The notes below the pieces were generated by a model. The model searched no databases, was not told the origin of the DNA, and saw nothing but the letters and a program-made list of their open reading frames with translations. A DNA stretch of 64,000 nt. Source: an uncultured Planctomycetia bacterium (GTDB lineage Bacteria > Omnitrophota > Gorgyraeia > Pluralincolimonadales > Pluralincolimonadaceae). The first letter of the stretch is position 1, and the number at the start of each line of letters is the position of its first letter. Below are positions 24,650-37,854 of this stretch, piece by piece. A program made the translations under genes and the position numbers. The DNA lies in NCBI GenBank assembly GCA_964484255.1, contig CAZAEH010000003.1, forward strand, positions 19,937-83,936, given 5' to 3'.

Positions 24650-27600
24650 ATGCTGAGCCGAAGCTTAATCAAGATTATAACAGTAATATTTACCGCGTCG
24701 ACGGTATTGGTAGTGTTCGTATCCTGTCCGGGCGGTGCGGAAGAATCTTCTCCTGTCGAAGAATTACAGGCGGGAATAGATTGCAGTAATCTCTCGCTTG
24801 AGTCAGCCCTGAACAAGCTTTATGAAGTTGACAGGGATATCCAGATAGCCAAACTTGCCTCCGATGCCGCCGTGCTTGAAATAAAGGCAAGGAAATTGGA
24901 TACTTTCCTTCCCAAGATCAGCATAGCGGGAAGCGTGATAAAACCATTCGACCTCTTCAGCGATCTTGACCAACAGACAGATCTTTTCTCGGAACAGCAA
25001 TTGGTTATAGAGATGTCTATTACTTCCGACAGCCTTAATTATATCTCCAAAGACAGGAAGAACTATGAGGCGAGCCTGCTTGAGATCAAACAGGCCGTAA
25101 CGGAAAGGACAAGGAAACTTATATCTGTATATTATGCGGTTGCTTCAGCTCAGGAAAATTACCGCATGAGCTGTGATAATGTAGAAACTGTTGAAAAAGT
25201 AATAGAGCTTATAAAGGGGAGCCCCGAATACACCGAAACAGAGAAACTTGAATTAAAGAATTATCTGGGCATAGTCAATGAAAGAAAAATAGGGGCGTTG
25301 AATACCCTTATAAATACAAGACGGGACCTCAGGGGATTATTGGGATTGGAGGATAACGATGACCTGGAGATCGTTGTCCAGGAACTTCCCGGCAATGTGA
25401 ACAAGGATCCGGCCTTCGCCGAAAAAGCGGAGATAAGGCCCACTGACTATACGCTTGATATAGTCAAGAAGAGGAGCGAGGAAGCTTCCGTATCGGCCCA
25501 TATAGGCACCAGTCCCCGCCTGAAGCTTGCCTCAACTACTATACTCGGGCTGGCGGAAGGTAAAGGTACCAGGTTTGAAAGGAAAGTTATAACCGACACC
25601 CAGCTGGAGTTATTCGTTACTGATTTCGGCCATTCGGAAGGCTTGAACCGCACGAAAAGTTTGGAATCACAGATAGCCAGGCTTGAGGTGTTAAAGGCTT
25701 CGGAGGACCTTGAGTGTGATGATCTTATGGGAAACGCGAAAATCTCCGACCTCAGCAAGAAGATAGATAATTACAGGGAGTATATAGCGAAAACAGAAGA
25801 TACACTCAGGATGCTTAAGGAGAAACTCTCGCTCCCGGTCATCGAAGTAATAAGGATTAGCGATAACCTTTACAAGGCCAAGTATGCATTACAGCAGGCG
25901 TTGAGCGATTATACGGTAACCTTGTCGAAGCTAAAAGGTGTCGAGATTAAGCCGGAAAATATGAGCCCGGCTTACCAGGACATGGATCTCGGGGACCTGA
26001 TATCAAGAGGAGAAAGAGCGGATCTTCTTACGGCGAGACAGATAGCCGAGAAGAGGATAAAGGTAGAGAAGGTGCGTATAGGTGCAGAGAGGGCCGGTTA
26101 TCTTCCCAAGCTTTACGGAGCGGCAGTACTTGAGAACGTGAACATAAACGGCACGCCGTCCAAGAATACCAGGGCTTTCCTTGCCTTGGAAGGCCGCATA
26201 CTTAACAACAAGGTCGGGGCAGCGGTAAAAGCCGCCAAGGCCGGGCTCAAGGAAGCCGAATACGAAGGCAGGGCGCTCCAGAACGCTGTTGCAGATGAGA
26301 TAATAAAGAATTATCTTCTTGTCCTGCGTTTCACCAACACACTTAAGAGACTCAACGAGATAAAAGAGCTTAAGAGCGGTCTTATAAACGATATGCTTGA
26401 GGACATGAGAAGCAAGAACACTAAATACACAAATTCCGACATACTTCCCCTCGTCCTACAGCAACTGGAAGTGGACAGGGAGATCTCGAATGTCGAATTT
26501 TCCTTGGCAGTGGTCGAATACAACCTCAAGAGATGGACAGGGATACCGCTTAACGAAACTATAACGGTGAAAGACCTGCCCTTGTTCGGCAGCGAAGAAG
26601 GGTTGTCTGATTTTAAAATGATGCTTAAAGGGAAGGTGGCGCCTTATTACGACGGGATGGCTTCCGTAAAACAGGCGCTTAGTTCTGTTGAAAGAAAGAG
26701 GGCCGGTGAGACCAGGGCCTTAGCCTATGAAGGGGCCATATGGCAGGTCAGGTATGAGACCAAGGGTTCCGATTATGACGGCTGGGAAGACCCTGATAAA
26801 CAGCTTTCATTTAGTGTCTCGATCCCATGGGGAGATCATGCCGAGAAGGTTGCCAGGTCCGAAGCCGCCAGGGACCGTATAAGATCTGAGATAGAATACG
26901 CGAAGAGCATGGATTCGTACGAGAAGGAAAGGTTCGCCGTGAAGACCGCCTACGATGCCTCAAATGACCTGCTCGGGGATCTTCGAAATAAAATGGAAAA
27001 TGCCGGTTCCCAGTTCAGGATAACGGATGAACTTTTCAGGTTCGGGGGAAGGACCAAGCGCCAATGGGCGGATGCCCGCCTTGATTATGTAGTTTCTCAG
27101 CTTACCTATGAAGAGGCGATCTTCGATAATTACTATGCCAGCGCCAGGGAGATACTTTTTGTAGAAAAAGATTCCAGACCGGAGGGCGGGGAAAAGATAC
27201 TTTTGTCGGGCCTCCAGGAGGCGCTGGATCTTGCTTTGCGCAACAGCCGTGAGATCAAAAAATACGAAGATGCCCTTGCGCTCGAGGAAGAGTCCCTTAA
27301 CTATTATAAGATGATAAGGGTGAACGGTTCGGTAAGCAAAGGTTATTATGTAATGGACAACAAGGGTTCTCAGAAACGAAAGACAGTCCAGACGACTGGA
27401 GGGGTTATTTCGGCGGAAGTGGACCTTGTGAACAATCTTATGGTCAGGAAACAGGAATTAAGGGTAGAGTTGGCCAGGAAAGACCTCGAACAGGCCAAGT
27501 TCGATCTTAACATAAGGGTGGTCGATTCATACTGCAATTACCTGGCCTCGCTTGCGGAGTACTCCCAGGTAGGCGGTGAGTACGAAAAACAGAAAGCTGT

Positions 27601-28498
27601 GCTCGCAGGGATCGAGGAGCTTTACACGGCGGGGGCGGTAGCCCACGTAGATTACCTCAAGCAAAAGGAATTTGTAGAAAGCCTCCTGCAAAAAACAATC
27701 GATGTCCGGAAATATTGCGAGGGTTACAGGAGCAATCTCGGTATAGTGGTTGGAGGGCTTGACCCCAGGTTCTCCGTAATGAATATCGAAGTATATGACG
27801 AATCATCCAAGAAGGTTATGTTGGCCGATAACTGTGATATAAAAGAAAGGCTTACCGCCGAACTCGGGTCGGCGAAGAAGGAGCTGGAAGTGCCGTTGCG
27901 CGCGGACCTGCTGAAACGGACCGAATGCAATATAGGAATGGCCAGGCTCGATACCGAGGCCATATCAAAGCAGATCAAGTCCCTGACATTCAATCTCGAG
28001 TATACTTATCTTACCGACTTTATGGGGGCGGTAACAAGGAATGAGGCCATATTCTCACGCTATAATTCCCTCTCGGAGTTCATATCCCTTAATTCCATGG
28101 ATAAGATATTCGATCCTGCCACGGCCACCAAGGCGAGGGTAGCTGCGTTAAAGGAAAAGATAACGGCCCTCAAGTCGAAATCGTACATGTCTGAGGTGCT
28201 CCAGAATGCCCTCAGGATCTTCACCGATTATAAGATGGCCGTTTTGGACTATGAGAATTTTGAAAAGAACGTATCCGTGCTCGAGGAGCGGATGAGCGAG
28301 CTCATGCGCGCTGAAGAGGCGACCGGGGACATGCCTGTCGTAAGGATCAGGGAGATAAAAGAGACCCTGCTGAACAATAAAATAAAGGATATACAGGCTT
28401 ATTACCATATGGTCAGTCTTATGAACGAGCTTGACCGGTACCTTATGAGGTATACAGCCAAGGGCATCGATTCATATATAACTTACGTGTCAAAATGA
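24650..28498 (+). CDS. giant outer-membrane-factor (TolC/NodT)-like lipoprotein, 1282 aa
   Basis: Lipoprotein signal with lipobox (…LVVFVSC). Repeated OEP-like segments (LSLESALNKLYEVDRDIQIAKLASDAAVLEIKARKLDTFLPKISIAGSV; DLLTARQIAEKRIKVEKVRIGAERAGYLPKLYGAAVL; LSGLQEALDLALRNSREIKKYEDALALEEESLNYYKM…) lie within extensive predicted coiled coil. It is about three times the length of TolC. AAAGGGG RBS; stop overlaps the next start (ATGA). Confidence 0.45.
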   Translation: MLSRSLIKIITVIFTASTVLVVFVSCPGGAEESSPVEELQAGIDCSNLSLESALNKLYEVDRDIQIAKLASDAAVLEIKARKLDTFLPKISIAGSVIKPFDLFSDLDQQTDLFSEQQLVIEMSITSDSLNYISKDRKNYEASLLEIKQAVTERTRKLISVYYAVASAQENYRMSCDNVETVEKVIELIKGSPEYTETEKLELKNYLGIVNERKIGALNTLINTRRDLRGLLGLEDNDDLEIVVQELPGNVNKDPAFAEKAEIRPTDYTLDIVKKRSEEASVSAHIGTSPRLKLASTTILGLAEGKGTRFERKVITDTQLELFVTDFGHSEGLNRTKSLESQIARLEVLKASEDLECDDLMGNAKISDLSKKIDNYREYIAKTEDTLRMLKEKLSLPVIEVIRISDNLYKAKYALQQALSDYTVTLSKLKGVEIKPENMSPAYQDMDLGDLISRGERADLLTARQIAEKRIKVEKVRIGAERAGYLPKLYGAAVLENVNINGTPSKNTRAFLALEGRILNNKVGAAVKAAKAGLKEAEYEGRALQNAVADEIIKNYLLVLRFTNTLKRLNEIKELKSGLINDMLEDMRSKNTKYTNSDILPLVLQQLEVDREISNVEFSLAVVEYNLKRWTGIPLNETITVKDLPLFGSEEGLSDFKMMLKGKVAPYYDGMASVKQALSSVERKRAGETRALAYEGAIWQVRYETKGSDYDGWEDPDKQLSFSVSIPWGDHAEKVARSEAARDRIRSEIEYAKSMDSYEKERFAVKTAYDASNDLLGDLRNKMENAGSQFRITDELFRFGGRTKRQWADARLDYVVSQLTYEEAIFDNYYASAREILFVEKDSRPEGGEKILLSGLQEALDLALRNSREIKKYEDALALEEESLNYYKMIRVNGSVSKGYYVMDNKGSQKRKTVQTTGGVISAEVDLVNNLMVRKQELRVELARKDLEQAKFDLNIRVVDSYCNYLASLAEYSQVGGEYEKQKAVLAGIEELYTAGAVAHVDYLKQKEFVESLLQKTIDVRKYCEGYRSNLGIVVGGLDPRFSVMNIEVYDESSKKVMLADNCDIKERLTAELGSAKKELEVPLRADLLKRTECNIGMARLDTEAISKQIKSLTFNLEYTYLTDFMGAVTRNEAIFSRYNSLSEFISLNSMDKIFDPATATKARVAALKEKITALKSKSYMSEVLQNALRIFTDYKMAVLDYENFEKNVSVLEERMSELMRAEEATGDMPVVRIREIKETLLNNKIKDIQAYYHMVSLMNELDRYLMRYTAKGIDSYITYVSK

Positions 28499-31400
28499 GA
28501 CCGGAGATGGCCAAGAACGGCAAAAAGGTAATTATAGTATTGATAGCGGTGCTGGCGGTGCTGCTTGCCATGCGTTCATGCCACAGGCCTGCCTTCAAGG
28601 CGTCAGTCCGTGAACCTTCTCCGGCCGAGCCTGAGAAGGCGATACCGGTTACCGCAGCGAATCCTTTGGATAATTCAAAGCAAAAGGATGGCCCGATAAA
28701 TGCCGGCGAGTTGGCAACTTTCATACTCGAATGGTCTGATCCTGGTACGGGCCTTGTGCCTACCATGATAGCCAAGTCAGGCGAGAAGAACCCCTTTGCA
28801 GAGATGTCTTATGTGTATCCTCAGGCTCTTGCCCACCAGAATATGGTTATGGCCGGTCAGCACGAATTTTCTTCCAAGGTTGCCGGGTTGTTGATGGAAA
28901 GAGGGGAGACTAGGGACATTCCCAACGGTCTTAACGTAAGGACCGGGTTGAGTGAAGATCCCCTCATAACGGCAGGGCCCAACGCCTGGTGGGGAATAAG
29001 TTTCATAAGGGAATTTCAATTGAGCGGTGATGAAAAATGGCTTGCCGCGGCTGAACGCCGTGCCGAGTTCCTTATAAATCTCCAGGCGGACAACGGGGGC
29101 ATAAGGAAATACCCGTTCCAGGGCAATACGGAATATTATGCTAAGTCGACAGAGGAGAACCTGGACTGTTATGTCCTGTTCGGGATGCTTTACGATATCA
29201 CCGGTAATGGTGTTTACAAGAATGCCATGGACAATATCCTTAAATGGATGGTATCGAGCGGCGTATACAACATAAAAGGAGGGTATTTTACAGCCGGTAC
29301 TTCTAAAGACGAGATAAATGATGTTTATGCTACTGACGCAAACGCACTTGCCATTATAATCCTGGGGCCCGAGGTCCTGGATTCGGAGTTTGGAGTGAAA
29401 TTCGGGGGGATCCGCACAAGCCGCAGGTTGCTTGAGAACCTGGAAAGGGCAAGGGTAAAAGTAGATTATTTGCATCCTAGCGGGGTAAAGGTCAAGAACG
29501 TAGAGGGATTCGATTTTACCGATAAATTCGGCAGGCCGGGCAGAAAACCTGTGCTGTCTCCGGAGTTCTCTTCCCAGGTTGCACTGGCTTATCTTGTTAT
29601 GGCCAAGCACGCAAGGGATAAGGGGGATAATGAAACCGCGGTGAAGTTTGTCGATACGGCAAAGTTATACCTTGATAACCTAGGGCGTATGGCCGCAAGG
29701 ATGGGTGTTTCCGCGTCGCTTCCTTATGCTTCCGAAAAAGGGATCAGGCGCTACCCATTCGATAACTGGCTTACTCCGCAGGCGGATGCCGATATCTCGG
29801 CCACGTGGACGTCATTCCCTCTCTCCGGGTTTAACCCGTTTGACCTCAACGGATTCGCGTTGCGCGACTCACTCAAGGATATTGCTAAGTGGATGAACGA
29901 ACAGGGCAAGGTGACAAAACCCTCCAAAGCGATAGTTATCCCGGAGCAGGAGAGGGTGATATCTGAAGCGGAACTTATCGCGCAGCGGGAGGCCAGCAGG
30001 GATGCCGCCCTCAAGAAACCCATAGTTTATTATAAGGTCCTTTACGACCAGGTCCTCAAGGATGCTACGATAGCCAGGAAGAGGGCCATAGCAGTCCTGA
30101 TGACTAGCTATAATTGCTGGTTTGACGGGGTGTTGGATACGCAAAAACGGGATTATGATGTTATAGGTGTTGACGGCGGTTTCAAGATAATTTACAAGAA
30201 GTTCTCAGACCTCCCGGAGCCCCTGAGCAAAGCTATCAGGTCGGAATATGCCTATTTCGACGATTCGACCGGAATCAAATGGAGGATAGCACCGAAGTAC
30301 AACCTGCGCCTGGATGGTAATTATAAGCCTTATTATGCTTTTGAGATAGACGGCGACTACAACATAGTAAGGCAGTTCTCTTCCGAGAACGACTTGCCTG
30401 AGGCCAACAGGGAAGACCTTAAGAACCAGGCCCAGCAGTTCCAGTCCGCAAAAGACCTGCCAGAGGGCCATTTGATAGCCAGGTATTTTACAGCCCTTGA
30501 AGTTGACGCGGATATGAATATACTCCAATATTATGATTCCGTAGAAGACCTGCCGGGCCTTGTTTCTAAAGTACCTATTACCGAACAGGAATACAAGAAA
30601 TATGTAAACGCGCAGGACTGGCAGAGGGCAGACCTGATATCTGCCGGTGTGGTCCCTGACGACAAGGGCATGCTTGCTACCCAGGAACGCGGCATGTACT
30701 ACGCCAGGGTCCTTGGGCTTGATGAGACAAGGCGATTACGGGTGGGCGGCGTTTCGGTCAAGAGCGGACAGGAAATAGTCATGGGTACCAAGTTCAACCT
30801 CACGAATTGGAGGACGAGCGAGACCTCGAAGTTGAACGCCGTGAAATATGAGCGGGGCCTTATCGAGGGCATGGTCATAAAGCCAAGGAAAGAATTCACC
30901 GGGAGCAGACCTACCCCTACGCAGCCGTTATGGATATACCTCGGCAATGACGTGATAGCTTCGGAGACAAAAGAATTCAAGGAAAGGCTGCTTGAACTGC
31001 TCAAAAGGGTCAGGGAGGAGAAGGATGCGCAGACCCGCCTCGAACTGATCGAACAGTATGACCGCCTTTCCAACGAATTGGCCTGGTATGACGACGACGG
31101 GTTTATCCACGTAATATATTATGGTGCAAAAGCAGCCGAAAAAAGGTTAGGCGAATTCGAGGTGGCAAAAGAAAGGGCTGAATCCACCCTAAGGAGTTAT
31201 GAGTCCATACTGGGCAAGGACGAATTCGGACGAGACCTGCGTGATGCTTCGGGCAGGGTCTGGCTCAAGGTGGTCAATGAAGCTACCGGTAGGGTCCTTT
31301 ATGTGGAGGTCTATGATATTGCCGGTAACCTTGAGACCATATATTCCGAGAATATACAGATAGACCCGCTTACAAAAGTCGTTACTTCTGATATCAGGAC

Positions 31401-34400
31401 GGATATCGAATACGACAAAGACACGCTTCAGGTGGTGGGCGGCCATACTTATCGTACGGATGAGAACGGAGAGTGGCTTTCCGATTTATCCGAGAGCATC
31501 TTCAAAGGTTACACCCCGGATAAGAAATATTTCGTCTCGGAAGTACATGTATTTGCCAGAGATGAAGACGGGAGGATAATATTCGAGGACGGCAAGGCAC
31601 GGTACACAAAGAAAATAGAATATTATACGCCGGAAGGTGATATATCCGCGCAGATAGTCAAAAACATAATAACCATAGTAAAATACGGGCCCGACCAAGA
31701 GGTCACCAAGGAAGTCTTTCTTGAATCGCCCGGCAAGACTTTATCGGATGAGGTCCCTAACCTTGAGAATCTGACCCAAGGTCTCGCGTGGGTACGCCGT
31801 TACAAGACTACCGGGAAGATCATGAATTTCAAGGAAGCATTGACCAAGTCGCTTACGTCCTTGCCCGAAGGTGAAAGGGAGAGGCAGGCTATACTTATAC
31901 TTAACAGGCTTGGCGCAGAGAAGGTAGGCAGGGTCAGCGACAGCCTTGTACTGGAGGAGAACGAGGTAACAAACAACCTCATCGGTGACCCCAACGCTCC
32001 GGGAGAGACGCCCTATTTCGTTTTCTATGAACCTGGGGACAGTCTTGGCAGGCAGAGGTTGATAGTCCGCGGCGGCACTATAGAGGTCCCGGTAGATTGG
32101 ATAGCCGAGACCGAAATACCGGCAAAGACCCTGACGTTCAACCTTGCGGGAGAACTTGTGTCGATAAGCGATGTCGACAACTCTGTCCGCGCAGATTCGA
32201 TACTCTCTCCCAAATATATAAAGAGAATGGAGCCTTTGGGCATATATGCCGATACCCTGTTGCCGCAGATGAAGAAGAGGATATTCAGGATGGTGACCGG
32301 GGAAGACGGGCTTCCGCATTTCACCAATACCGTAGCCATAACAACGGTCAGTTATATGATACCGGATGACGTGCTTGGGAGGGAATTGGTGAACGTCAAG
32401 TTCGTAATGCTCGGCGATGAGACGACATTACATAAAGGAAGCAAGCTTAAGCTCAAGAAGAACATGTTCGGCAGGGACACCCTGCTGGAATCCTGGAAGG
32501 ACGACAGAGGGGAAGACCGCACCCGGGCCATAGCCAAGAAAGAAGATACAGTCATCTATGAGTGGTACAAGGAGGGCCTGGAGGTAGACGAGTTAAGGGA
32601 ATTGCTGAAGTCCGAGTACGGGAAGCTGATCAAGCGAAAGGCGCTTGATGAGGCAATGAATAATATAGAAAAAGCCCCGTTCGGGACACTGCCCGGTTAC
32701 CATATAATAGAGCCAGGCGGACGCGTCGGAGAGATCAAATATTTCTCCGGAACGCTCGAGTATCCGCGCAGCGTATTCAGCCATCCGATGATCAAAATCC
32801 CTTATGAACCTGAGGTGAAACCGTTCAAACTTCCTGACGGACCTCCTATAAGGGGCGTCAAATACGGCGTCTTGAATTCCGACTACGCTTTTTACGATGT
32901 CCATTCCCTGAGCGGGCAGCTGATCGTGCTCGAGCGCCGCTTCATAATATTAAGGCTTATGAACATACTCCCGATACAGGGAGGGAGGCAGACGGAATAT
33001 TATGATCCGCTTGTCCCGTATTCATACCTAAGGCCCATAAAGATAGAAAGATATTTCAAACCCGGTACCCAGCCGGAAGGTACGCAACCGGGTACTCAGA
33101 TAGTAGCGGTTTTCCTCGGAGATGCCAGCGTTTACCATCGCAACGGATGGCAGACGCAGACATTCCTCGAACGCAGGCCGTTCGATATCGAACACTGGAT
33201 AAGGTCTGACTACGAGTTTGATGACAACGGTGTGTATAAGTATAAGAAGGAGCATATTGAAAGCAGCTCAGTATACCTCATGAAGACCATAAGATGGCAG
33301 AAACCCCTTCTCTCTGCCGTGTTATTTGCGGGTGCGCTCTTCATGTCCGGATATATATCCAGAAGGAGACTGAAAGCAGGCAGGACCCGCAGGATAAAAG
33401 TTGCCGAGGATGAAGCAAGGGTACAGGCGCCGCCGAAAGGCGCCATAGCGCCGTTTAACAAGGCCTTGCTGGAAAGATCGAACGTTCCTGAAGAGGTCAA
33501 GAAAGCCTGCATAGATGTCTACGAGGGGAATAAACCTCCGTCCGTGCTTTTTGCCGTGGTCATGGAAAAGTTCCGTCCTTTACTGGAAGAACGTTTCCGT
33601 GGTTTTGGCGCAGATCCTTCAAGGCATACCGCCGGTATAAATGTCATAATAAAGAGGATAGCCGACAGGATAGGGCGCGAGGAGATAATCCTCGGTAACC
33701 TGTTTGCGGTTGAGGCGAGGGAGTTTGAGAAATGGTCGGCCAAGAACGGAAGCGGGATCAGGCTGTCAGGCCTTGGGAATAAGCCGGATGAACTCGCGCT
33801 TGTGGCGCTGTTCCGCCTGATATTTGACGAATCCGTGGAATTCAGGGCGGCGGTGCCAGGTTTCAGGAATTACCTGCTTGATAAATCGCTTGGCATACTG
33901 CGTTCCGGAAAAGGGCCCGATGTATTGAAAGAGATCCGAAGCGATGTGCAGGTGTTCATAGAAGCTTTGAGGCCCGGATATGATAAGAAACTTGGCCTCA
34001 TAAAGGAATATATATTCACTTATGACGACATGAACGACCTTTTCGAAGGCAAGAGGCCGGGATTCATAACTTCTTTCGCTAAACTGGCGGGAGCTTCCGC
34101 GGAACAGAAACTTTTGTTCCTGGCGACAAAAGGCGGCAAGGAGCCCTCATCGGACCCGAAGTCTTATAAGAGCTATGCTTGGATGAAGACATTCCCGGAC
34201 AAGGCCGGTATACCGCAATTCGTCGATAACTTGCGCAGGTTCTGGGAGTTCCTAGTACCGATATTTTCCGTTGTTACCCTCGGCGGAGCGGCTATAGCCT
34301 TGAAGCTCTTGCCGTTTGCCGGGAGGATTGAGCAGCTGTCCGTCCACCTTGTCGGGATTCTTTCTCCGATTGCGCGTTTGTCCCCGAACGTGTTGGCCGT

Positions 34401-37400
34401 GTTCATAGAGATAACCCTCTTGATCCTGGCCGGAGTAATGCTGACGGTATTATTAATGAAACGGAGCCTTGGCAACTACAGGCCGGCTCACCTTGCAAGC
34501 GCGGAAAGCAGCGAGATAAGACGCTCTACCAGGCTGTTCTGGGTGATGTTCTTTTCCGCATCGTACCTGTGGGGCCTGTTCAGCATATTCGTGATAATTT
34601 GGACGGTCAGGATAATAATCAAACTTACGTTCGTGAACGCGGGCTGGGGCTTGTTCATCAACTCAAGCGCGCTGCTGCTTACGTTTACTTTCATACTTTC
34701 CAGTTTCTTCTCCCTGTTCTACATAATAATAGCCCTTATAGGTTTTTACCGGGGAAAGAGGGAAGGGGTCGGCCAGGTCATATCATGGGGCCAACTGAGA
34801 AGGAAATTCGGGTTATCGATGCAGCGTTTCTCGGATGTGATGATGCCCTCAGGGGGGCAGGCTTCCGGCCGTGCTGATGAAACGTGGAAGTCCTATTGGA
34901 ACGCCATGATAAAGGAACTCCATGATTACTATATAATAAGCGGAAGAGAGAAAGAGTCGCTTGTCTATTCATCCGGTAATCCCGCTCCGAAAATTGACAG
35001 GCCGCCGCGCGCCGAAGAGGCCTCGGAAAGGATAAGGATCTATATTAACAGTTGGCTCATGGAACTGCCCAAGGCGGAATCCTGGACGGATCTGCCTTCA
35101 CTGACGGCCATGATAACCGCTTTTAACGAACCTGTCAGTTTCACGTTCGATGAGCTCAACGGTTGCGACAGGGGCGCCGAAGTCACGAGGCTGAACCACC
35201 TGATAGGTTTTTACAGGCCCCAATGGGAAGAGTTTGTCAACAGGCTTGGCAGCTCCGATCTGGGGCAATTTGTGACACGGGAGCAACTAAAGCTGTTATT
35301 CGGCCTTAAGAGGCTCCCGGAAGGGCTGCCTGAACAGCTTAGGGAAAAGATACGCAAGTGGGCTAATCTTACCGTCCAGTGTGTTGAGAAGACGGTCGTG
35401 GAAGTATACAAGATACGGGACGCTTTTGCTATGTACGCCCGTATCTGTTACCCCGGGTTTTCCGACGGAGAGATAGAACGCATGGTTTCCGAGAAGGTCC
35501 AGATATTGCTCAACTATGAGGGGTATCATAGCCCCGCGACCAAGGATTCGGACAGGATAGCCTTGAGAAGATTAATGAAAGAGATGCCGAAGCTCAACGT
35601 TTATTGGTCCGCCAGCGATGCAGATTACACGTCCGGGGAAGACGAAACGGCCGTTGCCTATTTCAAGGGCGGCGACTGCGGCCTGCACAGGTATGATGAG
35701 GCTTCCGGCAGGATAGAACTTATAGAGACCGCGCCTTTTGTAGCGCCCGTTAAAAAAGGTAAGCCGAGCGGCCTAAACCAGGCCTTGCCTTTCATAAAAG
35801 GCGAGACCGTACTTTTCTTCGATGCCAACTGTTCTGTAAGGGTAGAGGATGCCGTAAAGATACCGGTGGCATTATCGGAGTTCAGGAACGATCCCGCTCT
35901 CGGAGAGGTCCTGTTCGCGGAGTATATATTCAACAAGAATTACTCATGGATATCTCAGGCGATAGGTTTCAACGAGGAGACGTTCGTATCCGTTACGCAA
36001 CGCACCCTGAATATATTCCAGGCCTGCGGTTTTTACGGCCATAGTGCGATCATAAGGACCGATATGATAACAGCTGCGGGAGGTTTTCCGCAGGACTACA
36101 TATCAGAGGATATACTGTTGGCTACATCTCTTTGGAAGAAAGGTTTCAGGACCGCTCACAAGGAGTACTTGCTCTTCGGTAAAGGCAGGGAGACCTCATA
36201 TTTTACCAGCCTTGTCCCGCTTACAAAATGGGCCATGGGATCTTCCGATGCCGCCATAGGCAGGGTAATCCCCGGTATATTGGATTCCGAGAAACTGCAC
36301 GTAGCCCAGAAGTTCATGCTTATGTTCGGGTTCTCGTTCTTCTACCAGACTCCGCTAATGTTTATAATCAATTTTCTTTACCTGTGGTTGATGATATGCT
36401 GGGGTATAAACGGTTTCATGGCCGTGCCGTATCCTATAGTATTCGGTATATTGGGGCTGCTTTTCAACCAATCTATAACCGCAACGGGTATCGCATACCT
36501 GCTTGAACATTTTGGATTCAGGAAATCTTTCTCGGCATATTTGAGGCTGGTTGCAAAGAACCATTTCTTCTACGCATCGGTCATACCGGCGTATGCCTTC
36601 GGGTTCCTCGCCGGACTTAAAGGGAAGGCTATATTCATAATAAGCCCGAAAGGGTGGAACCTCGGCCATTTACCGCTTAAGATCATCTGGGGGGAGAAGA
36701 GGGACATACTCAAGGCTTCCATGTTCAGCACGATAATAGGCCTGCCTTTGGCCTATGTGGCGGTGGCGACGAAGTCAATGCCGTTGTGGCTTAGCCCGTT
36801 CATACCGTTCCTGCCTTTTGCCATAGTTGCCTTGATGTATACCGCCGGGGTCAAATGGAACAAGATAGGAATACCGTACCTTAAGAACTGGCGCGACGAG
36901 GTAGTCCCTGACGGGGATATAGGGAAGATGTCGGTGATCAAACTGCAGATGATATATGCCGTGGTCCTTCTCGTCTTCACGGGAGTGGGTTTCGTCATGT
37001 GGGGCCTGATATTCTCATCACTGGCGGTCAAGGCGTTGTTCATATTCTCGGCTCTGTACATAAGTACGACGTTGTCTTTCATAATAATGCCGCTTTTTGC
37101 CCATTCGCAGCCTATAGCACTCTTCAAAGAGTTGACGATCTCGAGGTTCTGGAACTTTGTGATAATGCCGTTGCTGTTTGTTTGTGTTGTCCTGGGCATC
37201 AGTTCTATAGCCTCGGGACCGGCTACTGCGTCTCCTGAATCGGTGGTCTATACACTGCTAGGTATATCTTCCCTGATAGGTTGGGCGTTGCTGAAATGGA
37301 AACTCAGCGGTTATACTCGATTGAATAAATGGCTGAAGAATAACCTGCAAGGCTACCCGGCTGCTTCTTCGGTCCAGAAGTCCGATCTTATGGACGACAT

Positions 37401-37854
37401 GTATTTTTCGCACCAGGAACTCATACAGAGCGACAGGCAGGCCGAGATAAGGTATAACAGGGTACTGGGCAAGGTAAAAGCCGTGTTCATATTTACTATC
37501 CTGTTGACACTCCTGCTCTATTTTGCCTCAGAGTTCAACGCGAAATGCTATTCTCACTGGTTATGGGTTTTTGTGGTGTTAGAGGCAGCGTATATGCTAA
37601 TCCTGAACGTAGAGCATACCTCCGATGACAGGGTCTACCTGGGCAAGTTTTACAGCAGCGTGATCATCAATGATTTTAACAGGCTTAATGAGAACGTCAG
37701 GGCAATGGAAGATATCTGGAAGAAACTGGACCGCGCCTACAAAGCCAAGCTTGTGAGGATCTATGAGGATGAGGTGAGAGCCAAGAAAGCGGTCACGATC
37801 TATATGTCCAGGTGTATAAAGGCGTTCTCGACAGACTTCCAGAAGATTACCTAG
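28495..37854 (+). CDS. 3119-aa multidomain membrane protein: N-terminal anchor + periplasmic GH8-like region + polytopic processive GT2 (cellulose-synthase-like) glycosyltransferase
   Basis: Single 9.36-kb ORF, ATGA-coupled to the upstream gene. N-terminal TM at aa 12-27. GH8-signature-like YATDANALAIIIL at about aa 280. TM at about aa 1610. Two TM clusters flank a cytoplasmic domain. That domain has K-x-x-GLNQAL, an F-F-D-A-N-C D-x-D equivalent, an S-E-D…KGFR TED equivalent, and an L-T-K-W-A-M-G QxxRW equivalent, in the spacing seen in BcsA/chitin/hyaluronan synthases. Confidence 0.6.
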   Translation: MRPEMAKNGKKVIIVLIAVLAVLLAMRSCHRPAFKASVREPSPAEPEKAIPVTAANPLDNSKQKDGPINAGELATFILEWSDPGTGLVPTMIAKSGEKNPFAEMSYVYPQALAHQNMVMAGQHEFSSKVAGLLMERGETRDIPNGLNVRTGLSEDPLITAGPNAWWGISFIREFQLSGDEKWLAAAERRAEFLINLQADNGGIRKYPFQGNTEYYAKSTEENLDCYVLFGMLYDITGNGVYKNAMDNILKWMVSSGVYNIKGGYFTAGTSKDEINDVYATDANALAIIILGPEVLDSEFGVKFGGIRTSRRLLENLERARVKVDYLHPSGVKVKNVEGFDFTDKFGRPGRKPVLSPEFSSQVALAYLVMAKHARDKGDNETAVKFVDTAKLYLDNLGRMAARMGVSASLPYASEKGIRRYPFDNWLTPQADADISATWTSFPLSGFNPFDLNGFALRDSLKDIAKWMNEQGKVTKPSKAIVIPEQERVISEAELIAQREASRDAALKKPIVYYKVLYDQVLKDATIARKRAIAVLMTSYNCWFDGVLDTQKRDYDVIGVDGGFKIIYKKFSDLPEPLSKAIRSEYAYFDDSTGIKWRIAPKYNLRLDGNYKPYYAFEIDGDYNIVRQFSSENDLPEANREDLKNQAQQFQSAKDLPEGHLIARYFTALEVDADMNILQYYDSVEDLPGLVSKVPITEQEYKKYVNAQDWQRADLISAGVVPDDKGMLATQERGMYYARVLGLDETRRLRVGGVSVKSGQEIVMGTKFNLTNWRTSETSKLNAVKYERGLIEGMVIKPRKEFTGSRPTPTQPLWIYLGNDVIASETKEFKERLLELLKRVREEKDAQTRLELIEQYDRLSNELAWYDDDGFIHVIYYGAKAAEKRLGEFEVAKERAESTLRSYESILGKDEFGRDLRDASGRVWLKVVNEATGRVLYVEVYDIAGNLETIYSENIQIDPLTKVVTSDIRTDIEYDKDTLQVVGGHTYRTDENGEWLSDLSESIFKGYTPDKKYFVSEVHVFARDEDGRIIFEDGKARYTKKIEYYTPEGDISAQIVKNIITIVKYGPDQEVTKEVFLESPGKTLSDEVPNLENLTQGLAWVRRYKTTGKIMNFKEALTKSLTSLPEGERERQAILILNRLGAEKVGRVSDSLVLEENEVTNNLIGDPNAPGETPYFVFYEPGDSLGRQRLIVRGGTIEVPVDWIAETEIPAKTLTFNLAGELVSISDVDNSVRADSILSPKYIKRMEPLGIYADTLLPQMKKRIFRMVTGEDGLPHFTNTVAITTVSYMIPDDVLGRELVNVKFVMLGDETTLHKGSKLKLKKNMFGRDTLLESWKDDRGEDRTRAIAKKEDTVIYEWYKEGLEVDELRELLKSEYGKLIKRKALDEAMNNIEKAPFGTLPGYHIIEPGGRVGEIKYFSGTLEYPRSVFSHPMIKIPYEPEVKPFKLPDGPPIRGVKYGVLNSDYAFYDVHSLSGQLIVLERRFIILRLMNILPIQGGRQTEYYDPLVPYSYLRPIKIERYFKPGTQPEGTQPGTQIVAVFLGDASVYHRNGWQTQTFLERRPFDIEHWIRSDYEFDDNGVYKYKKEHIESSSVYLMKTIRWQKPLLSAVLFAGALFMSGYISRRRLKAGRTRRIKVAEDEARVQAPPKGAIAPFNKALLERSNVPEEVKKACIDVYEGNKPPSVLFAVVMEKFRPLLEERFRGFGADPSRHTAGINVIIKRIADRIGREEIILGNLFAVEAREFEKWSAKNGSGIRLSGLGNKPDELALVALFRLIFDESVEFRAAVPGFRNYLLDKSLGILRSGKGPDVLKEIRSDVQVFIEALRPGYDKKLGLIKEYIFTYDDMNDLFEGKRPGFITSFAKLAGASAEQKLLFLATKGGKEPSSDPKSYKSYAWMKTFPDKAGIPQFVDNLRRFWEFLVPIFSVVTLGGAAIALKLLPFAGRIEQLSVHLVGILSPIARLSPNVLAVFIEITLLILAGVMLTVLLMKRSLGNYRPAHLASAESSEIRRSTRLFWVMFFSASYLWGLFSIFVIIWTVRIIIKLTFVNAGWGLFINSSALLLTFTFILSSFFSLFYIIIALIGFYRGKREGVGQVISWGQLRRKFGLSMQRFSDVMMPSGGQASGRADETWKSYWNAMIKELHDYYIISGREKESLVYSSGNPAPKIDRPPRAEEASERIRIYINSWLMELPKAESWTDLPSLTAMITAFNEPVSFTFDELNGCDRGAEVTRLNHLIGFYRPQWEEFVNRLGSSDLGQFVTREQLKLLFGLKRLPEGLPEQLREKIRKWANLTVQCVEKTVVEVYKIRDAFAMYARICYPGFSDGEIERMVSEKVQILLNYEGYHSPATKDSDRIALRRLMKEMPKLNVYWSASDADYTSGEDETAVAYFKGGDCGLHRYDEASGRIELIETAPFVAPVKKGKPSGLNQALPFIKGETVLFFDANCSVRVEDAVKIPVALSEFRNDPALGEVLFAEYIFNKNYSWISQAIGFNEETFVSVTQRTLNIFQACGFYGHSAIIRTDMITAAGGFPQDYISEDILLATSLWKKGFRTAHKEYLLFGKGRETSYFTSLVPLTKWAMGSSDAAIGRVIPGILDSEKLHVAQKFMLMFGFSFFYQTPLMFIINFLYLWLMICWGINGFMAVPYPIVFGILGLLFNQSITATGIAYLLEHFGFRKSFSAYLRLVAKNHFFYASVIPAYAFGFLAGLKGKAIFIISPKGWNLGHLPLKIIWGEKRDILKASMFSTIIGLPLAYVAVATKSMPLWLSPFIPFLPFAIVALMYTAGVKWNKIGIPYLKNWRDEVVPDGDIGKMSVIKLQMIYAVVLLVFTGVGFVMWGLIFSSLAVKALFIFSALYISTTLSFIIMPLFAHSQPIALFKELTISRFWNFVIMPLLFVCVVLGISSIASGPATASPESVVYTLLGISSLIGWALLKWKLSGYTRLNKWLKNNLQGYPAASSVQKSDLMDDMYFSHQELIQSDRQAEIRYNRVLGKVKAVFIFTILLTLLLYFASEFNAKCYSHWLWVFVVLEAAYMLILNVEHTSDDRVYLGKFYSSVIINDFNRLNENVRAMEDIWKKLDRAYKAKLVRIYEDEVRAKKAVTIYMSRCIKAFSTDFQKIT

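What the first reader, a model, noticed from the sequence alone, without database searches (positions are those of the whole stretch)
28495..37854. Single 3119-aa ORF with unusual topology: anchor, ~1.5-kb-aa periplasmic region, cytoplasmic segment, TM cluster, GT2 domain, TM cluster
This is one of the largest ORFs one would expect in such a genome. Hydrophobic stretches sit at about aa 12-27, about 1610, about 1900-2050 (4-5 helices) and about 2600-3000 (8 or more helices). This suggests a periplasmic N-terminal two-thirds and a cytoplasmic catalytic GT domain (about aa 2330-2590) embedded between membrane bundles. That arrangement is reminiscent of cellulose/callose/hyaluronan synthases but far larger. 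The periplasmic middle (about aa 500-1600) has no motif I recognise and contains short acidic D-L-P-E repeats.
Basis: partly seen in the sequence, partly recalled or inferred. Interest (0 to 1): 0.8.

Follow-up and report, generated by a model that had tools for sequence, protein, structure and literature searches.

The report
Bacterial callose-synthase-type giant membrane enzyme
This 3119-residue gene of an uncultured Omnitrophota bacterium fuses a large periplasmic domain to a complete homologue of the fungal/plant beta-1,3-glucan (callose) synthase, an enzyme family I found described only in eukaryotes, and sits in a conserved operon that looks like a whole polysaccharide-export machine.

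Summary
The ORF (28495..37854, +, 3119 aa) is real. An identical protein occurs in independent assemblies, and collinear orthologues (46-97% identity) occur in at least 13 species, mostly Candidatus Omnitrophota.

Residues ~1690-2800 align with eukaryotic GT48 beta-1,3-glucan synthases (FKS1/callose synthase):
- Pfam PF02364: 93 bits.
- Profile-profile comparison: probability 100%, E 2e-63, over 1055 columns.
- The alignment covers the FKS1 accessory domain, both membrane bundles and the GT domain.
- The GT48 signature residues are invariant: K2423, D2443-A-N2445, E2538-D2539.

The N-terminal ~1600 residues are predicted periplasmic. They hold a GH76-like (alpha/alpha)6 domain that lacks the GH76 catalytic Asp pair, followed by a beta-rich region of unknown fold.

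In an Auribacterota-like relative the same protein is split into two adjacent genes, so this ORF is a fusion.

Conserved neighbours are a diguanylate cyclase, a repeat protein, a 1282-aa TolC-like outer-membrane protein and a GlgC-like nucleotidyltransferase.

Best reading: a trans-envelope beta-glucan synthase/export system. The product and the export route are inferred, not shown. I found no literature describing bacterial GT48.

Verdict: a new variant of a known kind.

The parts
21477..23054 (+). dCache_1-HAMP-GGDEF diguanylate cyclase. It has two TM segments, a GGEEL active-site variant and an RxxD I-site. It is the first gene of the conserved cluster.
   Evidence: Pfam GGDEF 1.5e-43, dCache_1, HAMP. 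Sequence read. The same gene sits upstream in L001 and L004.
23036..24328 (+). 430-aa exported protein made of about 13 tandem ~29-residue beta-hairpin (MORN-variant-like) repeats behind an N-terminal hydrophobic segment.
   Evidence: Translation and hydropathy. Weak MORN_2 hit. A gene of similar size (410 and 424 aa) occupies the same position in L001 and L004; I did not compare the sequences.
24429..24623 (+). 64-aa helix-turn-helix protein of the excisionase/HTH_17 family, lying between the repeat protein and the OEP gene.
   Evidence: TIGR01764 3.4e-11. A 64-aa gene lies upstream of the OEP gene in L001 (Pfam HTH_17) and in L002 (no Pfam hit; a 53-aa gene intervenes before the OEP gene).
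24650..28498 (+). 1282-aa TolC/OEP-family outer-membrane protein with a lipoprotein-like signal (…FVSC). OEP matches fall in each third, so it may hold three TolC protomer equivalents in one chain. Its stop overlaps the giant's ATG.
   Evidence: Pfam OEP 7.6e-25, 4 stretches. Each third scored separately: 1.9e-10, 4.4e-10, 3.5e-6. Orthologue directly upstream of the synthase in L001, L002, L004, L005/6 and L020 (29% identity in L020), and a truncated ORF overlapping the synthase start in L017. Internal-repeat test not significant.
28495..37854 (+). The 3119-aa fusion protein: a periplasmic module plus a GT48-type glucan synthase module.
28528..28584 (+). TM1 / signal anchor (aa 12-30), preceded by the Lys-rich MRPEMAKNGKK.
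   Evidence: Hydropathy 2.46.
28672..29904 (+). Predicted periplasmic (alpha/alpha)6-type, GH76-like domain (aa ~60-470). The GH76 catalytic Asp-Asp is replaced by Pro-Asn (AGPNAWW). Invariant acidic residues are E220, D281, D340, D343 and E357.
   Evidence: PF03663 30-34 bits against a cutoff of 25.9. Profile against PDB GH76 mannanases E 2e-9, over ~100 residues only. Alignment A4. The same domain recurs in other giants: P0043, P0109 and P0056, which also carry GT48, and P0012, which had no GT48 match.
30142..30594 (+). Four short repeats, each ending in DLPE or DLPG (aa 572, 633, 654, 685). The low-confidence model shows them as strand-strand-helix units.
   Evidence: 3 DLPE against 0.05 expected. 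Conserved columns. Secondary structure from the low-confidence model.
29905..33303 (+). Predicted periplasmic, mostly beta-rich region (aa 471-1603) of unknown family. It contains YD/Rhs-like hairpin stretches around aa 900-1080.
   Evidence: No Pfam or PDB sequence match. Conserved across the family (A3). Model pLDDT 44. Foldseek top hits are Rhs/teneurin and DUF3836, but TM-scores are only 0.05-0.08 against the Rhs/teneurin entries, so this is weak.
33304..33360 (+). TM2 (aa 1604-1622). It returns the chain to the cytoplasm and is followed by RRRLKAGRTRRIK. It corresponds to the C-terminal anchor of the separate 1661-aa protein in the split system.
33562..34239 (+). Cytoplasmic helical domain (aa ~1690-1915) homologous to the FKS1/callose-synthase accessory (AC, FKS1_dom1) domain. 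'FTYDDMNDLFEG' aligns with the eukaryotic 'YDDLNELFW' motif.
   Evidence: hhalign confidence 7-8 out of 9 over aa 1700-1800 against P0161 residues 179-346.
34240..34752 (+). First TM bundle (aa 1916-2086), aligned with FKS TM1-6.
34792..36312 (+). Cytoplasmic GT48 catalytic domain (aa ~2100-2606).
   Evidence: PF02364 1.6e-26, 93 bits. FKS1/FKS2 PDB chains E 2e-11 to 9e-9, aa 2170-2591 against FKS1 809-1274. hhalign confidence 7-9.
35821..35829 (+). D2443-A2444-N2445: the GT48 'DAN' motif, matching FKS1 D1102-A1103-N1104.
36106..36111 (+). E2538-D2539: the catalytic 'ED' motif, matching FKS1 E1221-D1222. It is followed 40 residues later by K2578-W2579 (TKWAMG), which corresponds to QxxRW of GT2 synthases.
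36313..37614 (+). Second TM bundle (aa 2607-3040, eight or more helices). Its first part aligns with FKS TM7 onward.
37615..37851 (+). C-terminal tail (aa 3041-3119). No family recognised and no PilZ.
37847..39226 (-). Convergent 459-aa cytoplasmic protein, a divergent GlgC-like sugar-1-phosphate nucleotidyltransferase. Its 3' end overlaps the giant's by 8 nt. It is the best-conserved neighbour.
   Evidence: 52% identical orthologue in the same position in the split system L020. 8 of 16 homologues hit PF00483 (best 2.2e-8). The family profile weakly hits glucose-1-phosphate adenylyltransferase (E 0.006).

Best explanation
The ORF encodes the inner-membrane core of a trans-envelope polysaccharide synthase system of an Omnitrophota bacterium.

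Shown:
- Its C-terminal ~1430 residues are a complete homologue of eukaryotic GT48 beta-1,3-glucan synthases (FKS1/callose synthase): accessory domain, TM bundle, GT domain, TM bundle. All catalytic signature residues are intact.
- Its N-terminal ~1600 residues are a second protein (a separate gene in a relative) fused on through a TM helix. This part carries a GH76-like (alpha/alpha)6 domain and a large beta-rich region.
- The gene lies in a conserved cluster with a diguanylate cyclase, a beta-hairpin repeat protein, a 1282-aa TolC-family outer-membrane protein and a GlgC-like nucleotidyltransferase.

Inferred mechanism:
1. The nucleotidyltransferase supplies an NDP-glucose.
2. The cytoplasmic GT48 domain polymerises it processively, most likely into a beta-1,3-linked glucan, without a DxD-bound metal, as in FKS1.
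3. The chain is threaded through the channel formed by the TM bundles.
4. The fused periplasmic module receives the chain. It plays the role that BcsB and BcsZ play for cellulose: guidance, and trimming or remodelling by the (alpha/alpha)6 domain.
5. The chain is passed to the TolC-like duct for release at the cell surface as a capsule, matrix or attachment polymer.
6. The adjacent sensor diguanylate cyclase links production to an environmental signal.
For: Family assignment:
- PF02364 scores 93 bits against a cutoff of 37.
- The best PDB relatives are FKS1/FKS2 (E 2e-11 to 9e-9). BcsA is weaker (6e-7).
- hhalign of the family against 15 sequences of the NJ eukaryote clade (three carry eukaryotic source labels) gives Prob 100%, E 2.2e-63, 1055 columns, aa ~1691-2794 against chytrid FKS residues 170-1537. 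This includes the AC domain and the TM regions.
- The FKS1 functional residues listed in PMC12715860 map as follows: K1082 to K2423, D1102/N1104 to D2443/N2445, E1221/D1222 to E2538/D2539, E851 to E2212. All are invariant in the family and nearly universal in 73 bacterial-type GT domains.

Coupling of the two halves:
- L020 has adjacent genes of 1661 aa (matching aa 10-1634, 42% identity) and 1447 aa (matching aa 1689-3100, 44% identity).
- The (alpha/alpha)6 domain co-occurs with GT48 in other giants.

Operon:
- The OEP gene lies directly upstream in every locus with enough flank; in the window, L004 and L017 its stop overlaps the synthase start codon.
- The DGC and repeat-protein genes are conserved in L001 and L004.
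- The nucleotidyltransferase-like gene is conserved at 52% identity.

Topology: hydropathy and the positive cluster after TM2.

Native locus: surrounding housekeeping genes and uniform GC content.
Against: - No biochemical evidence exists. Linkage and sugar specificity cannot be read from 19-25% identity to characterised enzymes.
- FKS1 N1085 is Gly in this clade.
- Both AlphaFold models were poor (pLDDT 46 and 44), so fold-level confirmation is weak. Foldseek finds only FKS1/2 at E<=0.003, but with TM-scores ~0.2.
- No PilZ or other known c-di-GMP receptor was found in the protein, so the DGC link is by neighbourhood only.
- TolC-family ducts are known for protein and drug export, not polysaccharide export, and no membrane-fusion adaptor gene lies in the cluster.
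- The GH76-like domain lacks the GH76 catalytic pair, so its activity is unknown.
Confidence: 0.6

Rival explanations
1. Same enzyme, but the glucan is not exported. It is released into the periplasm or built into the envelope, like osmoregulated periplasmic glucans or a wall polymer. The (alpha/alpha)6 and beta-rich periplasmic module cuts, branches or cyclises it. The TolC-like neighbour would then serve another purpose.
For: The periplasmic module is large, conserved and carries a glycosidase-like barrel. TolC-type channels are not known polysaccharide exporters. A GH94 phosphorylase and a GH35/42 enzyme lie near the split system in L020, which hints at glucan recycling.
Against: The OEP gene lies directly upstream of the synthase in every locus with enough flank, down to 29% identity, and overlaps its start codon in three of them. 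That is hard to explain without a functional link.
Confidence: 0.2
2. The GT48-like module makes a polymer other than a linear beta-1,3-glucan: a different linkage, a mixed linkage, or another sugar from a different NDP-sugar.
For: Identity to characterised GT48 enzymes is only ~24% in the GT domain. N1085 is not conserved. The position equivalent to the GT2 QxxRW tryptophan is aromatic here (W2579) but aliphatic in eukaryotic GT48. The associated nucleotidyltransferase is too divergent to assign a substrate.
Against: From the literature read here, characterised GT48 enzymes are described as UDP-glucose beta-1,3-glucan synthases. The uridine- and catalysis-related residues K, E, DAN and ED are kept.
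Confidence: 0.25
3. One reading: an oversized GT2-family processive synthase of the cellulose/hyaluronan type.
For: Weak GT2_3 (34 bits), CelA (27 bits) and BcsA (E 6e-7; hhalign Prob 52%) matches over the core GT-A region. A KWAxG motif sits at the QxxRWAxG spacing.
Against: GT48 scores are far higher and extend over 1055 columns, including the accessory domain and TM bundles that GT2 enzymes lack. The motif is DAN, not DxD. There is no PilZ.
Confidence: 0.05
4. Artefact: an assembly chimera, or a read-through of two genes caused by a sequencing error. Alternatively, a decayed or non-catalytic giant surface protein.
For: The two halves are separate genes in one lineage. Omnitrophota MAGs are fragmentary.
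Against: The fused architecture, with the linking TM helix, recurs in 11 protein clusters from independent samples and assemblers at 46-100% identity. All catalytic residues are invariant.
Confidence: 0.02

Closest known systems
Eukaryotic GT48 beta-1,3-glucan synthases (yeast FKS1/FKS2, plant callose synthases CalS/GSL)
   Same: Homologous over the accessory domain, TM1-6, GT domain and following TM helices. Same DAN and ED motifs and the same K/E nucleotide-binding residues. The GT domain is inserted between two TM bundles.
   Different: - It is bacterial.
- It carries a fused ~1600-aa periplasmic module in front.
- No Rho1-type GTPase partner is apparent.
- It has an aromatic residue (W2579) where eukaryotic GT48 have Ile/Leu/Val.
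- FKS1 N1085 is replaced by Gly.
- It sits in an operon with an outer-membrane duct and a diguanylate cyclase.
- GT-domain identity is only ~24%.
Bacterial cellulose synthase complex BcsA-BcsB-BcsZ-BcsC (GT2) with c-di-GMP control
   Same: The same logic applies. A processive inner-membrane synthase with a cytoplasmic GT-A domain and its own channel. A large periplasmic partner anchored by a TM helix next to the synthase (BcsB-like). A periplasmic (alpha/alpha)6 glycosidase-type domain (BcsZ-like). A dedicated outer-membrane component. A link to c-di-GMP signalling. KWAxG lies 40 residues after the ED/TED aspartate, as QRxRWAxG does in E. coli BcsA.
   Different: The catalytic module is GT48-type (DAN, accessory domain). 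There is no PilZ domain. The outer-membrane partner is TolC-family rather than a BcsC TPR plus 16-strand barrel. The periplasmic parts show no detectable sequence similarity to BcsB or BcsZ.
Curdlan synthase CrdS of Agrobacterium (GT2), from my own knowledge the known bacterial beta-1,3-glucan synthase
   Same: It would make the same kind of polymer in a Gram-negative envelope.
   Different: CrdS is a GT2 enzyme of ~650 aa with no accessory domain and no fused periplasmic module.
Fission-yeast Bgs3-Ghs2 'synthase-remodeler' module (PMC13612389)
   Same: A GT48 synthase is physically coupled to an extracytoplasmic glycoside-hydrolase-type domain that acts on the nascent glucan.
   Different: There the partner is a separate GH16 protein. 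Here it is a fused, or adjacently encoded, GH76-like (alpha/alpha)6 domain with a non-canonical active site.
Cyclic beta-1,2-glucan synthase Cgs/NdvB (GT84 + GH94, ~2800 aa; from my own knowledge)
   Same: A giant multi-domain bacterial membrane glucan synthase that combines a polymerase with glucan-processing domains.
   Different: No GT84 or GH94 match in this protein. In Cgs the processing domains are cytoplasmic. Here the extra module is predicted periplasmic.

Membership tests
GT48 (1,3-beta-glucan synthase, Pfam PF02364) | Significant match to the family profile above the curated cutoff | tested here: met
   93.2 bits against gathering score 37.2, E 1.6e-26, aa 2172-2642. All full-length homologues carry PF02364.
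GT48 | DAN motif (D1102-A-N1104 of FKS1) in place of the GT-A DxD | tested here: met
   D2443-A2444-N2445 aligned to FKS1 'IDAN'. Invariant in the family. D in 73/73 and N in 60/73 bacterial-type domains. Motif definition from PMC12715860.
GT48 | Catalytic ED motif (E1221-D1222) | tested here: met
   S-E2538-D2539-I aligned to N-E-D-I. Invariant. E 72/73, D 73/73.
GT48 | UDP-glucose binding residues Y849, E851, K1082, N1085 | tested here: inconclusive
   F2210 (a conservative change from Y), E2212 and K2423 are conserved. N1085 aligns to G2426, with N2428 two residues on.
GT48 | Architecture: cytosolic accessory domain, TM bundle, GT domain, TM bundle | tested here: met
   hhalign Prob 100%, E 2.2e-63, 1055 aligned columns, aa 1691-2794 against chytrid FKS residues 170-1537. 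Hydropathy.
GT48 | FKS1-like three-dimensional fold | tested here: inconclusive
   The model was poor (pLDDT 46). Foldseek's only hits at E<=0.003 are six FKS1/FKS2 entries (E 6e-5 to 2.7e-3), but TM-scores are ~0.2.
GT48 | UDP-glucose:1,3-beta-D-glucan glucosyltransferase activity | not testable with these tools
   Needs an enzyme assay and product linkage analysis.
GT2 processive synthases (BcsA/CesA/HAS type) | D,D,D,QxxRW signature with a DxD metal site | tested here: not met
   The DxD position is DAN. A TED-like SED and a KWAxG at the QxxRW spacing are present. GT2_3 scores only 34 bits, and hhalign against E. coli BcsA gives Prob 52% over 130 columns.
c-di-GMP-activated synthases (BcsA-type) | PilZ or another recognised c-di-GMP receptor domain in the synthase | tested here: not met
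   No PilZ in Pfam or NCBIfam scans of the whole protein or its segments. Only an adjacent GGDEF gene is present.
GH76 alpha-1,6-mannanases (the name given to this protein by NCBI annotation) | Match to the PF03663 profile | tested here: met
   30-34 bits against cutoff 25.9, but covering only aa 163-272. Family profile against PDB GH76 E 2e-9 over ~100 residues.
GH76 alpha-1,6-mannanases | Adjacent catalytic Asp-Asp pair before the 'MWW' helix (Bacillus circulans GH76; numbering D124/D125 and the catalytic role are from my own memory, not from a tool) | tested here: not met
   The family has A-G-P-N-A-W-W at this position. The Asn aligns with the residue that is Asn in PDB entry 5agd (taken from memory to be a catalytic-Asp mutant). 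No acidic residue occurs in this stretch in any of 8 divergent members.
TolC/OEP outer-membrane channel family (neighbour 24650..28498) | OEP repeats. A canonical protomer has two, and three protomers form the channel | tested here: inconclusive
   OEP is significant overall (88 bits) and in each third, which suggests three protomer equivalents in one chain. But only 5 stretches were found, and profile comparison of the thirds with each other is not significant.
Omnitrophota 'giant genes' (West-Roberts et al. preprint; 2026 complete-genome preprint) | Very long, repeat-rich surface proteins an order of magnitude larger than this one (the held papers cite predicted bacterial giants of 10,000-30,000 aa and a 62,866-aa protein) | tested here: not met
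   At 3119 aa, this is an enzyme-centred membrane protein. Those papers do not mention glucan synthase or GT48. GT48 modules do occur inside larger giants of 5,000-7,900 aa.

The most novel reading that the evidence does not exclude
GT48, treated in all the literature I could search as a eukaryotic enzyme family, has a large and deeply diverged bacterial radiation centred on Omnitrophota and neighbouring uncultured phyla. That radiation may include the ancestor of eukaryotic FKS/callose synthases.

Evidence in this direction:
- The bacterial GT domains sampled here are more diverse than the eukaryotic ones: mean identity 35% against 49%.
- The bacterial sequences form several deep groups, while all labelled eukaryotes fall on one side of a single split (90-100/100 NJ bootstraps).
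- The bacterial forms keep a GT2-like aromatic residue in the QxxRW-equivalent position, which eukaryotic GT48 have lost.

If this holds, beta-1,3-glucan walls of fungi and plant callose would trace to a bacterial trans-envelope exopolysaccharide machine. The split 1447-aa bacterial enzyme would offer a prokaryotic model for the echinocandin target.
Probability: 0.2. Interest if true: 0.85.

Novelty: new variant of a known kind. Interest (0 to 1): 0.66.

Why it matters
Beta-1,3-glucan synthases of the FKS1/callose-synthase type are central to fungal walls, where they are the target of the echinocandins and ibrexafungerp, and to plant development and defence. Yet all the structural and evolutionary literature I could search treats them as eukaryotic enzymes related only distantly to bacterial GT2 cellulose synthases.

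A complete bacterial homologue with intact catalytic residues would matter in four ways:
- It would give a prokaryotic, and in the split version compact (1447 aa), system for biochemistry and structure.
- It would make the origin of GT48 testable with a rooted phylogeny.
- It would show a new way of building a Gram-negative exopolysaccharide machine, in which synthase, periplasmic guide/remodeller and a TolC-type duct are combined.
- It would assign a concrete function to one class of the unexplained large membrane proteins of Omnitrophota, which public annotation labels 'GH76 family', 'GT2 family' or 'hypothetical'.

Tried and rejected
- **AlphaFold2, synthase core.** aa 1880-3060 with an 8-sequence alignment gave pLDDT 46. 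This is too poor for fold conclusions. The fold search is reported only as weak, sequence-dependent support.
- **AlphaFold2, periplasmic middle.** aa 470-1603 with a 9-sequence alignment gave pLDDT 44. The fold search is likewise weak.
- **Periplasmic middle, sequence searches.** Pfam, NCBIfam and PDB sequence and profile searches of the periplasmic middle and the C-terminal tail found nothing.
- **OEP internal repeat.** I tested the idea that the 1282-aa OEP protein is a clean threefold internal repeat by profile-profile comparison of its thirds. The result was not significant. Only the distribution of OEP matches supports the idea.
- **c-di-GMP receptor.** I looked for PilZ or another c-di-GMP receptor in the synthase and found none.
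- **Canonical GH76 mannanase.** Rejected, because the catalytic Asp pair is absent.
- **Cgs/NdvB-type synthase.** Rejected, because there are no GT84 or GH94 matches.
- **Mobile element or foreign DNA.** Rejected on the housekeeping context and even GC content.
- **First NJ bootstrap.** The first run was invalid because saturated distances gave NaN values. It was repeated with capped distances.
- **Literature.** Searches for bacterial GT48/PF02364 and for glucan synthase in Omnitrophota found only eukaryote papers.
- **Rooting.** I did not attempt to root the GT48 tree with GT2 outgroups. Only E. coli BcsA was available, and at ~15-25% identity a distance tree would be dominated by long-branch effects.

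Full report
**1. The observation**

The ORF listing and translation confirm an uninterrupted ATG-initiated ORF at 28495..37854 (+) of 3119 codons. A Kyte-Doolittle scan places hydrophobic segments at aa 5-32, 1604-1622, 1916-2086, 2607-2912 and 2989-3040.

DLPE occurs three times (aa 572, 633, 654) against 0.05 expected from composition, with a DLPG at aa 685.

The gene is native to its surroundings:
- GC content is flat at ~0.50 across the window.
- The neighbours are housekeeping genes: SecDF, RecJ, RecG, fab genes, etfAB, dnaG-rpoD and the dcw cluster.

**2. It is not an artefact**

A search of 5.8 billion proteins returned 11 full-length or nearly full-length relatives at 46-100% identity. 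All those that carry a source name are from Candidatus Omnitrophota MAGs; the rest are unnamed. Annotations are only 'glycoside hydrolase family 76 protein', 'glycosyltransferase family 2 protein' or 'hypothetical'.

Aligned with ten of them, the protein is conserved end to end, with mean column identity 69% and no weak block in the periplasmic middle.

The identical protein is encoded in a JGI metagenome and in NCBI assembly GCA_030154505.1. A scan of GTDB species representatives found 13 loci. The closest is Omnitrophica bacterium UBA6215 at 97% identity on a 284-kb contig.

The start codon is ambiguous. Position 28495 overlaps the upstream stop as ATGA. Gene callers used 28507.

**3. What the C-terminal half is**

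Sequence matches:
- Pfam gives PF02364 (1,3-beta-glucan synthase component, GT48) at 93 bits against a cutoff of 37 over aa 2172-2642. GT2_3 scores only 34 bits.
- Against PDB sequences the best relatives are yeast FKS1 and FKS2 (E 2e-11 to 9e-9; aa 2170-2591 against FKS1 809-1274). BcsA is weaker, at 6e-7.

A 2025 review of FKS structures (PMC12715860) lists the functional residues. They map as follows:

| FKS1 residue | Role | This protein |
|---|---|---|
| Y849, E851 | UDP-Glc binding | F2210, E2212 |
| K1082 | UDP-Glc binding | K2423 |
| N1085 | UDP-Glc binding | G2426 (an Asn lies two residues on) |
| D1102-A1103-N1104 | metal-independent DAN motif | D2443-A2444-N2445 |
| E1221-D1222 | catalytic ED motif | E2538-D2539 |

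All of these except the N1085 position are invariant in the family.

A profile of the family (aa 1600-3119, plus P0014 and P0015) was compared with a profile of 15 sequences from the eukaryote clade of the NJ tree. Three carry eukaryotic source labels (a chytrid, Nannochloropsis, a EukProt transcript); the other twelve are unlabelled. The result was probability 100%, E 2.2e-63, 1055 aligned columns, from aa ~1691 to ~2794 against residues 170-1537 of a chytrid FKS.

The aligned region therefore covers four parts:
Here 'FTYDDMNDLFEG' aligns with the eukaryotic 'YDDLNELFW' motif.
- The first TM bundle.
- The GT domain.
- The beginning of the second TM bundle.

So this is a whole FKS/callose-synthase-like enzyme, not merely a shared GT-A core.

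The AlphaFold model of this region was poor (pLDDT 46). Foldseek nevertheless returned only FKS1/FKS2 entries at E<=0.003 (six entries). With TM-scores ~0.2 I treat this as weak support.

**4. What the N-terminal half is**

Residues ~60-470 give a marginal but above-threshold GH76 match. A profile built from eight divergent copies of this domain hits GH76 alpha-1,6-mannanases at E 2e-9, but over only ~100 residues.

The adjacent Asp-Asp pair that I recall, from my own knowledge, as the GH76 catalytic pair aligns to Pro-Asn (AGPNAWW), and no acidic residue lies nearby. The domain therefore has a GH76-like (alpha/alpha)6 fold with a different site. The invariant acidic residues are E220, D281, D340, D343 and E357.

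The same domain recurs in other Omnitrophota giants. Three of them (P0043, P0109, P0056) also contain a GT48 module. The fourth, P0012, had no GT48-domain match.

Residues 471-1603 match nothing in Pfam, NCBIfam or PDB. The model was poor (pLDDT 44). It suggests a mostly beta structure with YD/Rhs-like hairpins around aa 900-1080 and strand-strand-helix units carrying the DLPE motif.

**5. The ORF is a gene fusion**

The closest relative lacking the N-terminal half is P0014. It is 1447 aa, 47% identical, and labelled 'bacterium'. A shorter fragment in the same 90% cluster is labelled Candidatus Auribacterota.

Its locus, L020, encodes the following in order:
1. A 1321-aa OEP protein (29% identical to the window's).
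2. A 1661-aa protein equal to aa 10-1634 of the giant (42% identity). It includes both anchoring helices.
3. The 1447-aa synthase, equal to aa 1689-3100 (44% identity).
4. A 191-aa gene with no counterpart in the window.
5. Convergently, a 460-aa protein 52% identical to the window's 459-aa neighbour.

This split/fused relationship shows that the periplasmic module and the synthase work together. It also explains the unusual topology. The C-terminal anchor of the periplasmic partner became the linker helix, TM2. This is reminiscent of BcsB, which from my own knowledge packs its single C-terminal helix against BcsA.

**6. The conserved cluster**

Upstream of the giant, in the window, L001 and L004, lie three genes:
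- A dCache-HAMP-GGDEF diguanylate cyclase (GGEEL, with an RxxD I-site).
- A ~410-430-aa exported protein. In the window it is made of ~13 tandem 29-residue hairpin repeats.
- A 1250-1370-aa TolC/OEP-family protein. Its stop overlaps the synthase start codon in the window and L004, and a truncated upstream ORF does the same in L017. In L001, L002 and L020 it lies a few to ~50 nt upstream. L002 has the OEP gene but too little upstream flank to show the cyclase.

A 64-aa HTH gene lies upstream of the OEP gene in the window, L001 and L002.

OEP matches occur in each third of the 1282-aa protein. This suggests three protomer equivalents in one chain. A direct test for internal repetition was not significant, so this remains a hypothesis.

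The convergent 459-aa gene had no Pfam hit itself. However, 8 of 16 homologues match NTP_transferase (best 2.2e-8), and the family profile weakly matches glucose-1-phosphate adenylyltransferase. The Cys-rich, repeat-like C-terminal half looks to me, by eye and untested, like GlgC's left-handed beta-helix.

**7. Mechanism**

Shown:
- Homology and intact catalytic residues of a GT48-type processive synthase.
- A hydropathy- and homology-based topology prediction that places the GT domain in the cytoplasm and ~1570 residues outside.
- Fusion/fission coupling of the two halves.
- A conserved gene neighbourhood.

Inferred:
- The nucleotidyltransferase supplies NDP-glucose.
- The GT48 domain polymerises a beta-glucan, most likely beta-1,3-linked, and threads it through its own TM channel as proposed for FKS1.
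- The periplasmic module guides the chain, and its (alpha/alpha)6 domain trims or remodels it. This is functionally analogous to BcsB/BcsZ and to the fungal Bgs3-Ghs2 synthase-remodeler pair.
- The TolC-like protein provides the outer-membrane exit.
- The diguanylate cyclase couples production to a signal.

Weak points:
- There is no receptor for c-di-GMP in the protein.
- There is no precedent I know of for TolC-family polysaccharide export.
- The specificity is unknown.
- The structure models were poor.

**8. Wider family and evolution**

An exhaustive HMMER scan of 1.84 billion cluster representatives with aa 1880-3060 found the following counts:

| E-value threshold | Representative clusters |
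|---|---|
| <=1e-3 | 464 |
| <=1e-10 | 199 |
| <=1e-30 | 58 |

Many of these are proteins of 2,000-7,900 aa with the GT48 module at varying positions. Of the proteins whose cluster names I looked up, about half carried a name. Those near the query were Omnitrophota or unclassified bacteria.

Labelled eukaryotic GT48 enzymes appear further down the list:
- A chytrid FKS and a Nannochloropsis callose synthase at E ~1e-15 to 1e-16.
- A Cyanophora protein at 1.7e-38.

In a neighbour-joining tree of 106 GT domains, all labelled eukaryotes fall in one clade. A split separating them from labelled bacteria has 90/100 bootstrap support, or 100/100 without Cyanophora.

GT-domain identities:

| Comparison | Mean identity |
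|---|---|
| Bacteria vs eukaryotes | 24% |
| Among labelled bacteria | 35% |
| Among labelled eukaryotes | 49% |

Conservation of signature residues across 73 bacterial-type domains:

| Residue | Conserved in |
|---|---|
| K2423 | 73/73 |
| D2443 | 73/73 |
| N2445 | 60/73 |
| E2538 | 72/73 |
| D2539 | 73/73 |

Forty residues after the ED aspartate the bacterial forms have K-[W/F/Y]-A-x-G. This matches the spacing and form of QRxRWAxG in E. coli BcsA. Eukaryotic GT48 have K-[I/L/V] at that position. This intermediate character, together with the greater bacterial diversity, keeps open the possibility that eukaryotic GT48 derive from this bacterial stock. The tree is unrooted and distance-based, so this remains a hypothesis.

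**9. Novelty**

Full-text searches found only work on eukaryotes. I searched for GT48 with bacteria, prokaryotes or horizontal transfer, for PF02364, for callose synthase bacterial homologues, and for glucan synthase with Omnitrophota. The three main Omnitrophota papers do not mention glucan synthase.

The Pfam hit is precomputed in public collections, so the raw similarity is visible to anyone who looks. CAZy may list some bacterial GT48 entries, which I could not check.

I therefore rate this a new variant of a known kind. It is a bacterial, fused, operon-embedded GT48 system rather than a categorically new mechanism.

Noticed in passing
window 24650..28498 (+): The TolC/OEP-family protein is about three times the normal length (1282 aa) and has OEP matches in each third. 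It could be a whole trimeric TolC-like channel encoded as one chain. It also has a lipoprotein-like signal (…FVSC). Profile comparison of the thirds with each other was not significant.
   Followed up: partly
window 23036..24328 (+): A 430-aa protein consists almost entirely of ~13 tandem 29-residue repeats (consensus roughly QGIxCAKGTxxxFYESGKLQYATLAxDQxI) behind a hydrophobic N-terminus. Its start overlaps the end of the diguanylate cyclase gene.
   Followed up: partly
window 37847..39226 (-): A convergent 459-aa gene overlaps the giant's 3' end by 8 nt. It has no Pfam hit itself, but its family is a divergent GlgC-like NTP_transferase. It is the most conserved neighbour of the synthase, at 52% identity in the distant split system.
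   Followed up: yes
window 24429..24623 (+): A small excisionase/HTH_17-type DNA-binding protein (64 aa) sits inside the polysaccharide cluster. A 64-aa gene lies in a similar position in L001 (Pfam HTH_17) and L002 (no Pfam hit). It may be a local regulator.
   Followed up: partly
L020 2968..12344 (Logan SRR18595300 contig): This is the split version of the giant, with adjacent genes of 1661 aa and 1447 aa. A GH35/42 enzyme, a GntR/LacI-type regulator and a GH94 phosphorylase lie downstream, which hints at beta-glucan turnover.
   Followed up: partly
proteins P0024, P0041, P0085, P0127 and others: GT48-type modules are embedded at varying positions in much larger proteins of 5,000-7,900 aa, including Omnitrophota proteins. 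One (P0040, 6521 aa) is annotated 'FAD-dependent oxidoreductase', and one (P0018, 5601 aa) 'LysM peptidoglycan-binding'.
   Followed up: no
protein P0050 (Cyanophora paradoxa, 2113 aa): The glaucophyte GT48 protein matches the bacterial query far better (E 1.7e-38) than fungal, stramenopile or plant-type enzymes do (~1e-15). It is also the least stable member of the eukaryote clade in bootstraps.
   Followed up: no
window 21477..23054 (+): The diguanylate cyclase has GGEEL instead of GGDEF/GGEEF. It retains an RxxD I-site five residues upstream.
   Followed up: partly
window 20208..21449 (+): The electron-transfer flavoprotein alpha subunit carries an N-terminal 2x[4Fe-4S] ferredoxin domain. 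It lies next to an acyl-CoA dehydrogenase and EtfB.
   Followed up: no
L013 (CAZYUB010000006.1) and L015 (QNBN01000154.1): Orthologues at 75% and 50% identity sit in MAGs labelled 'uncultured Planctomycetia' and 'Spirochaetes bacterium'. This reflects either mis-binning or a wider distribution of the family.
   Followed up: no
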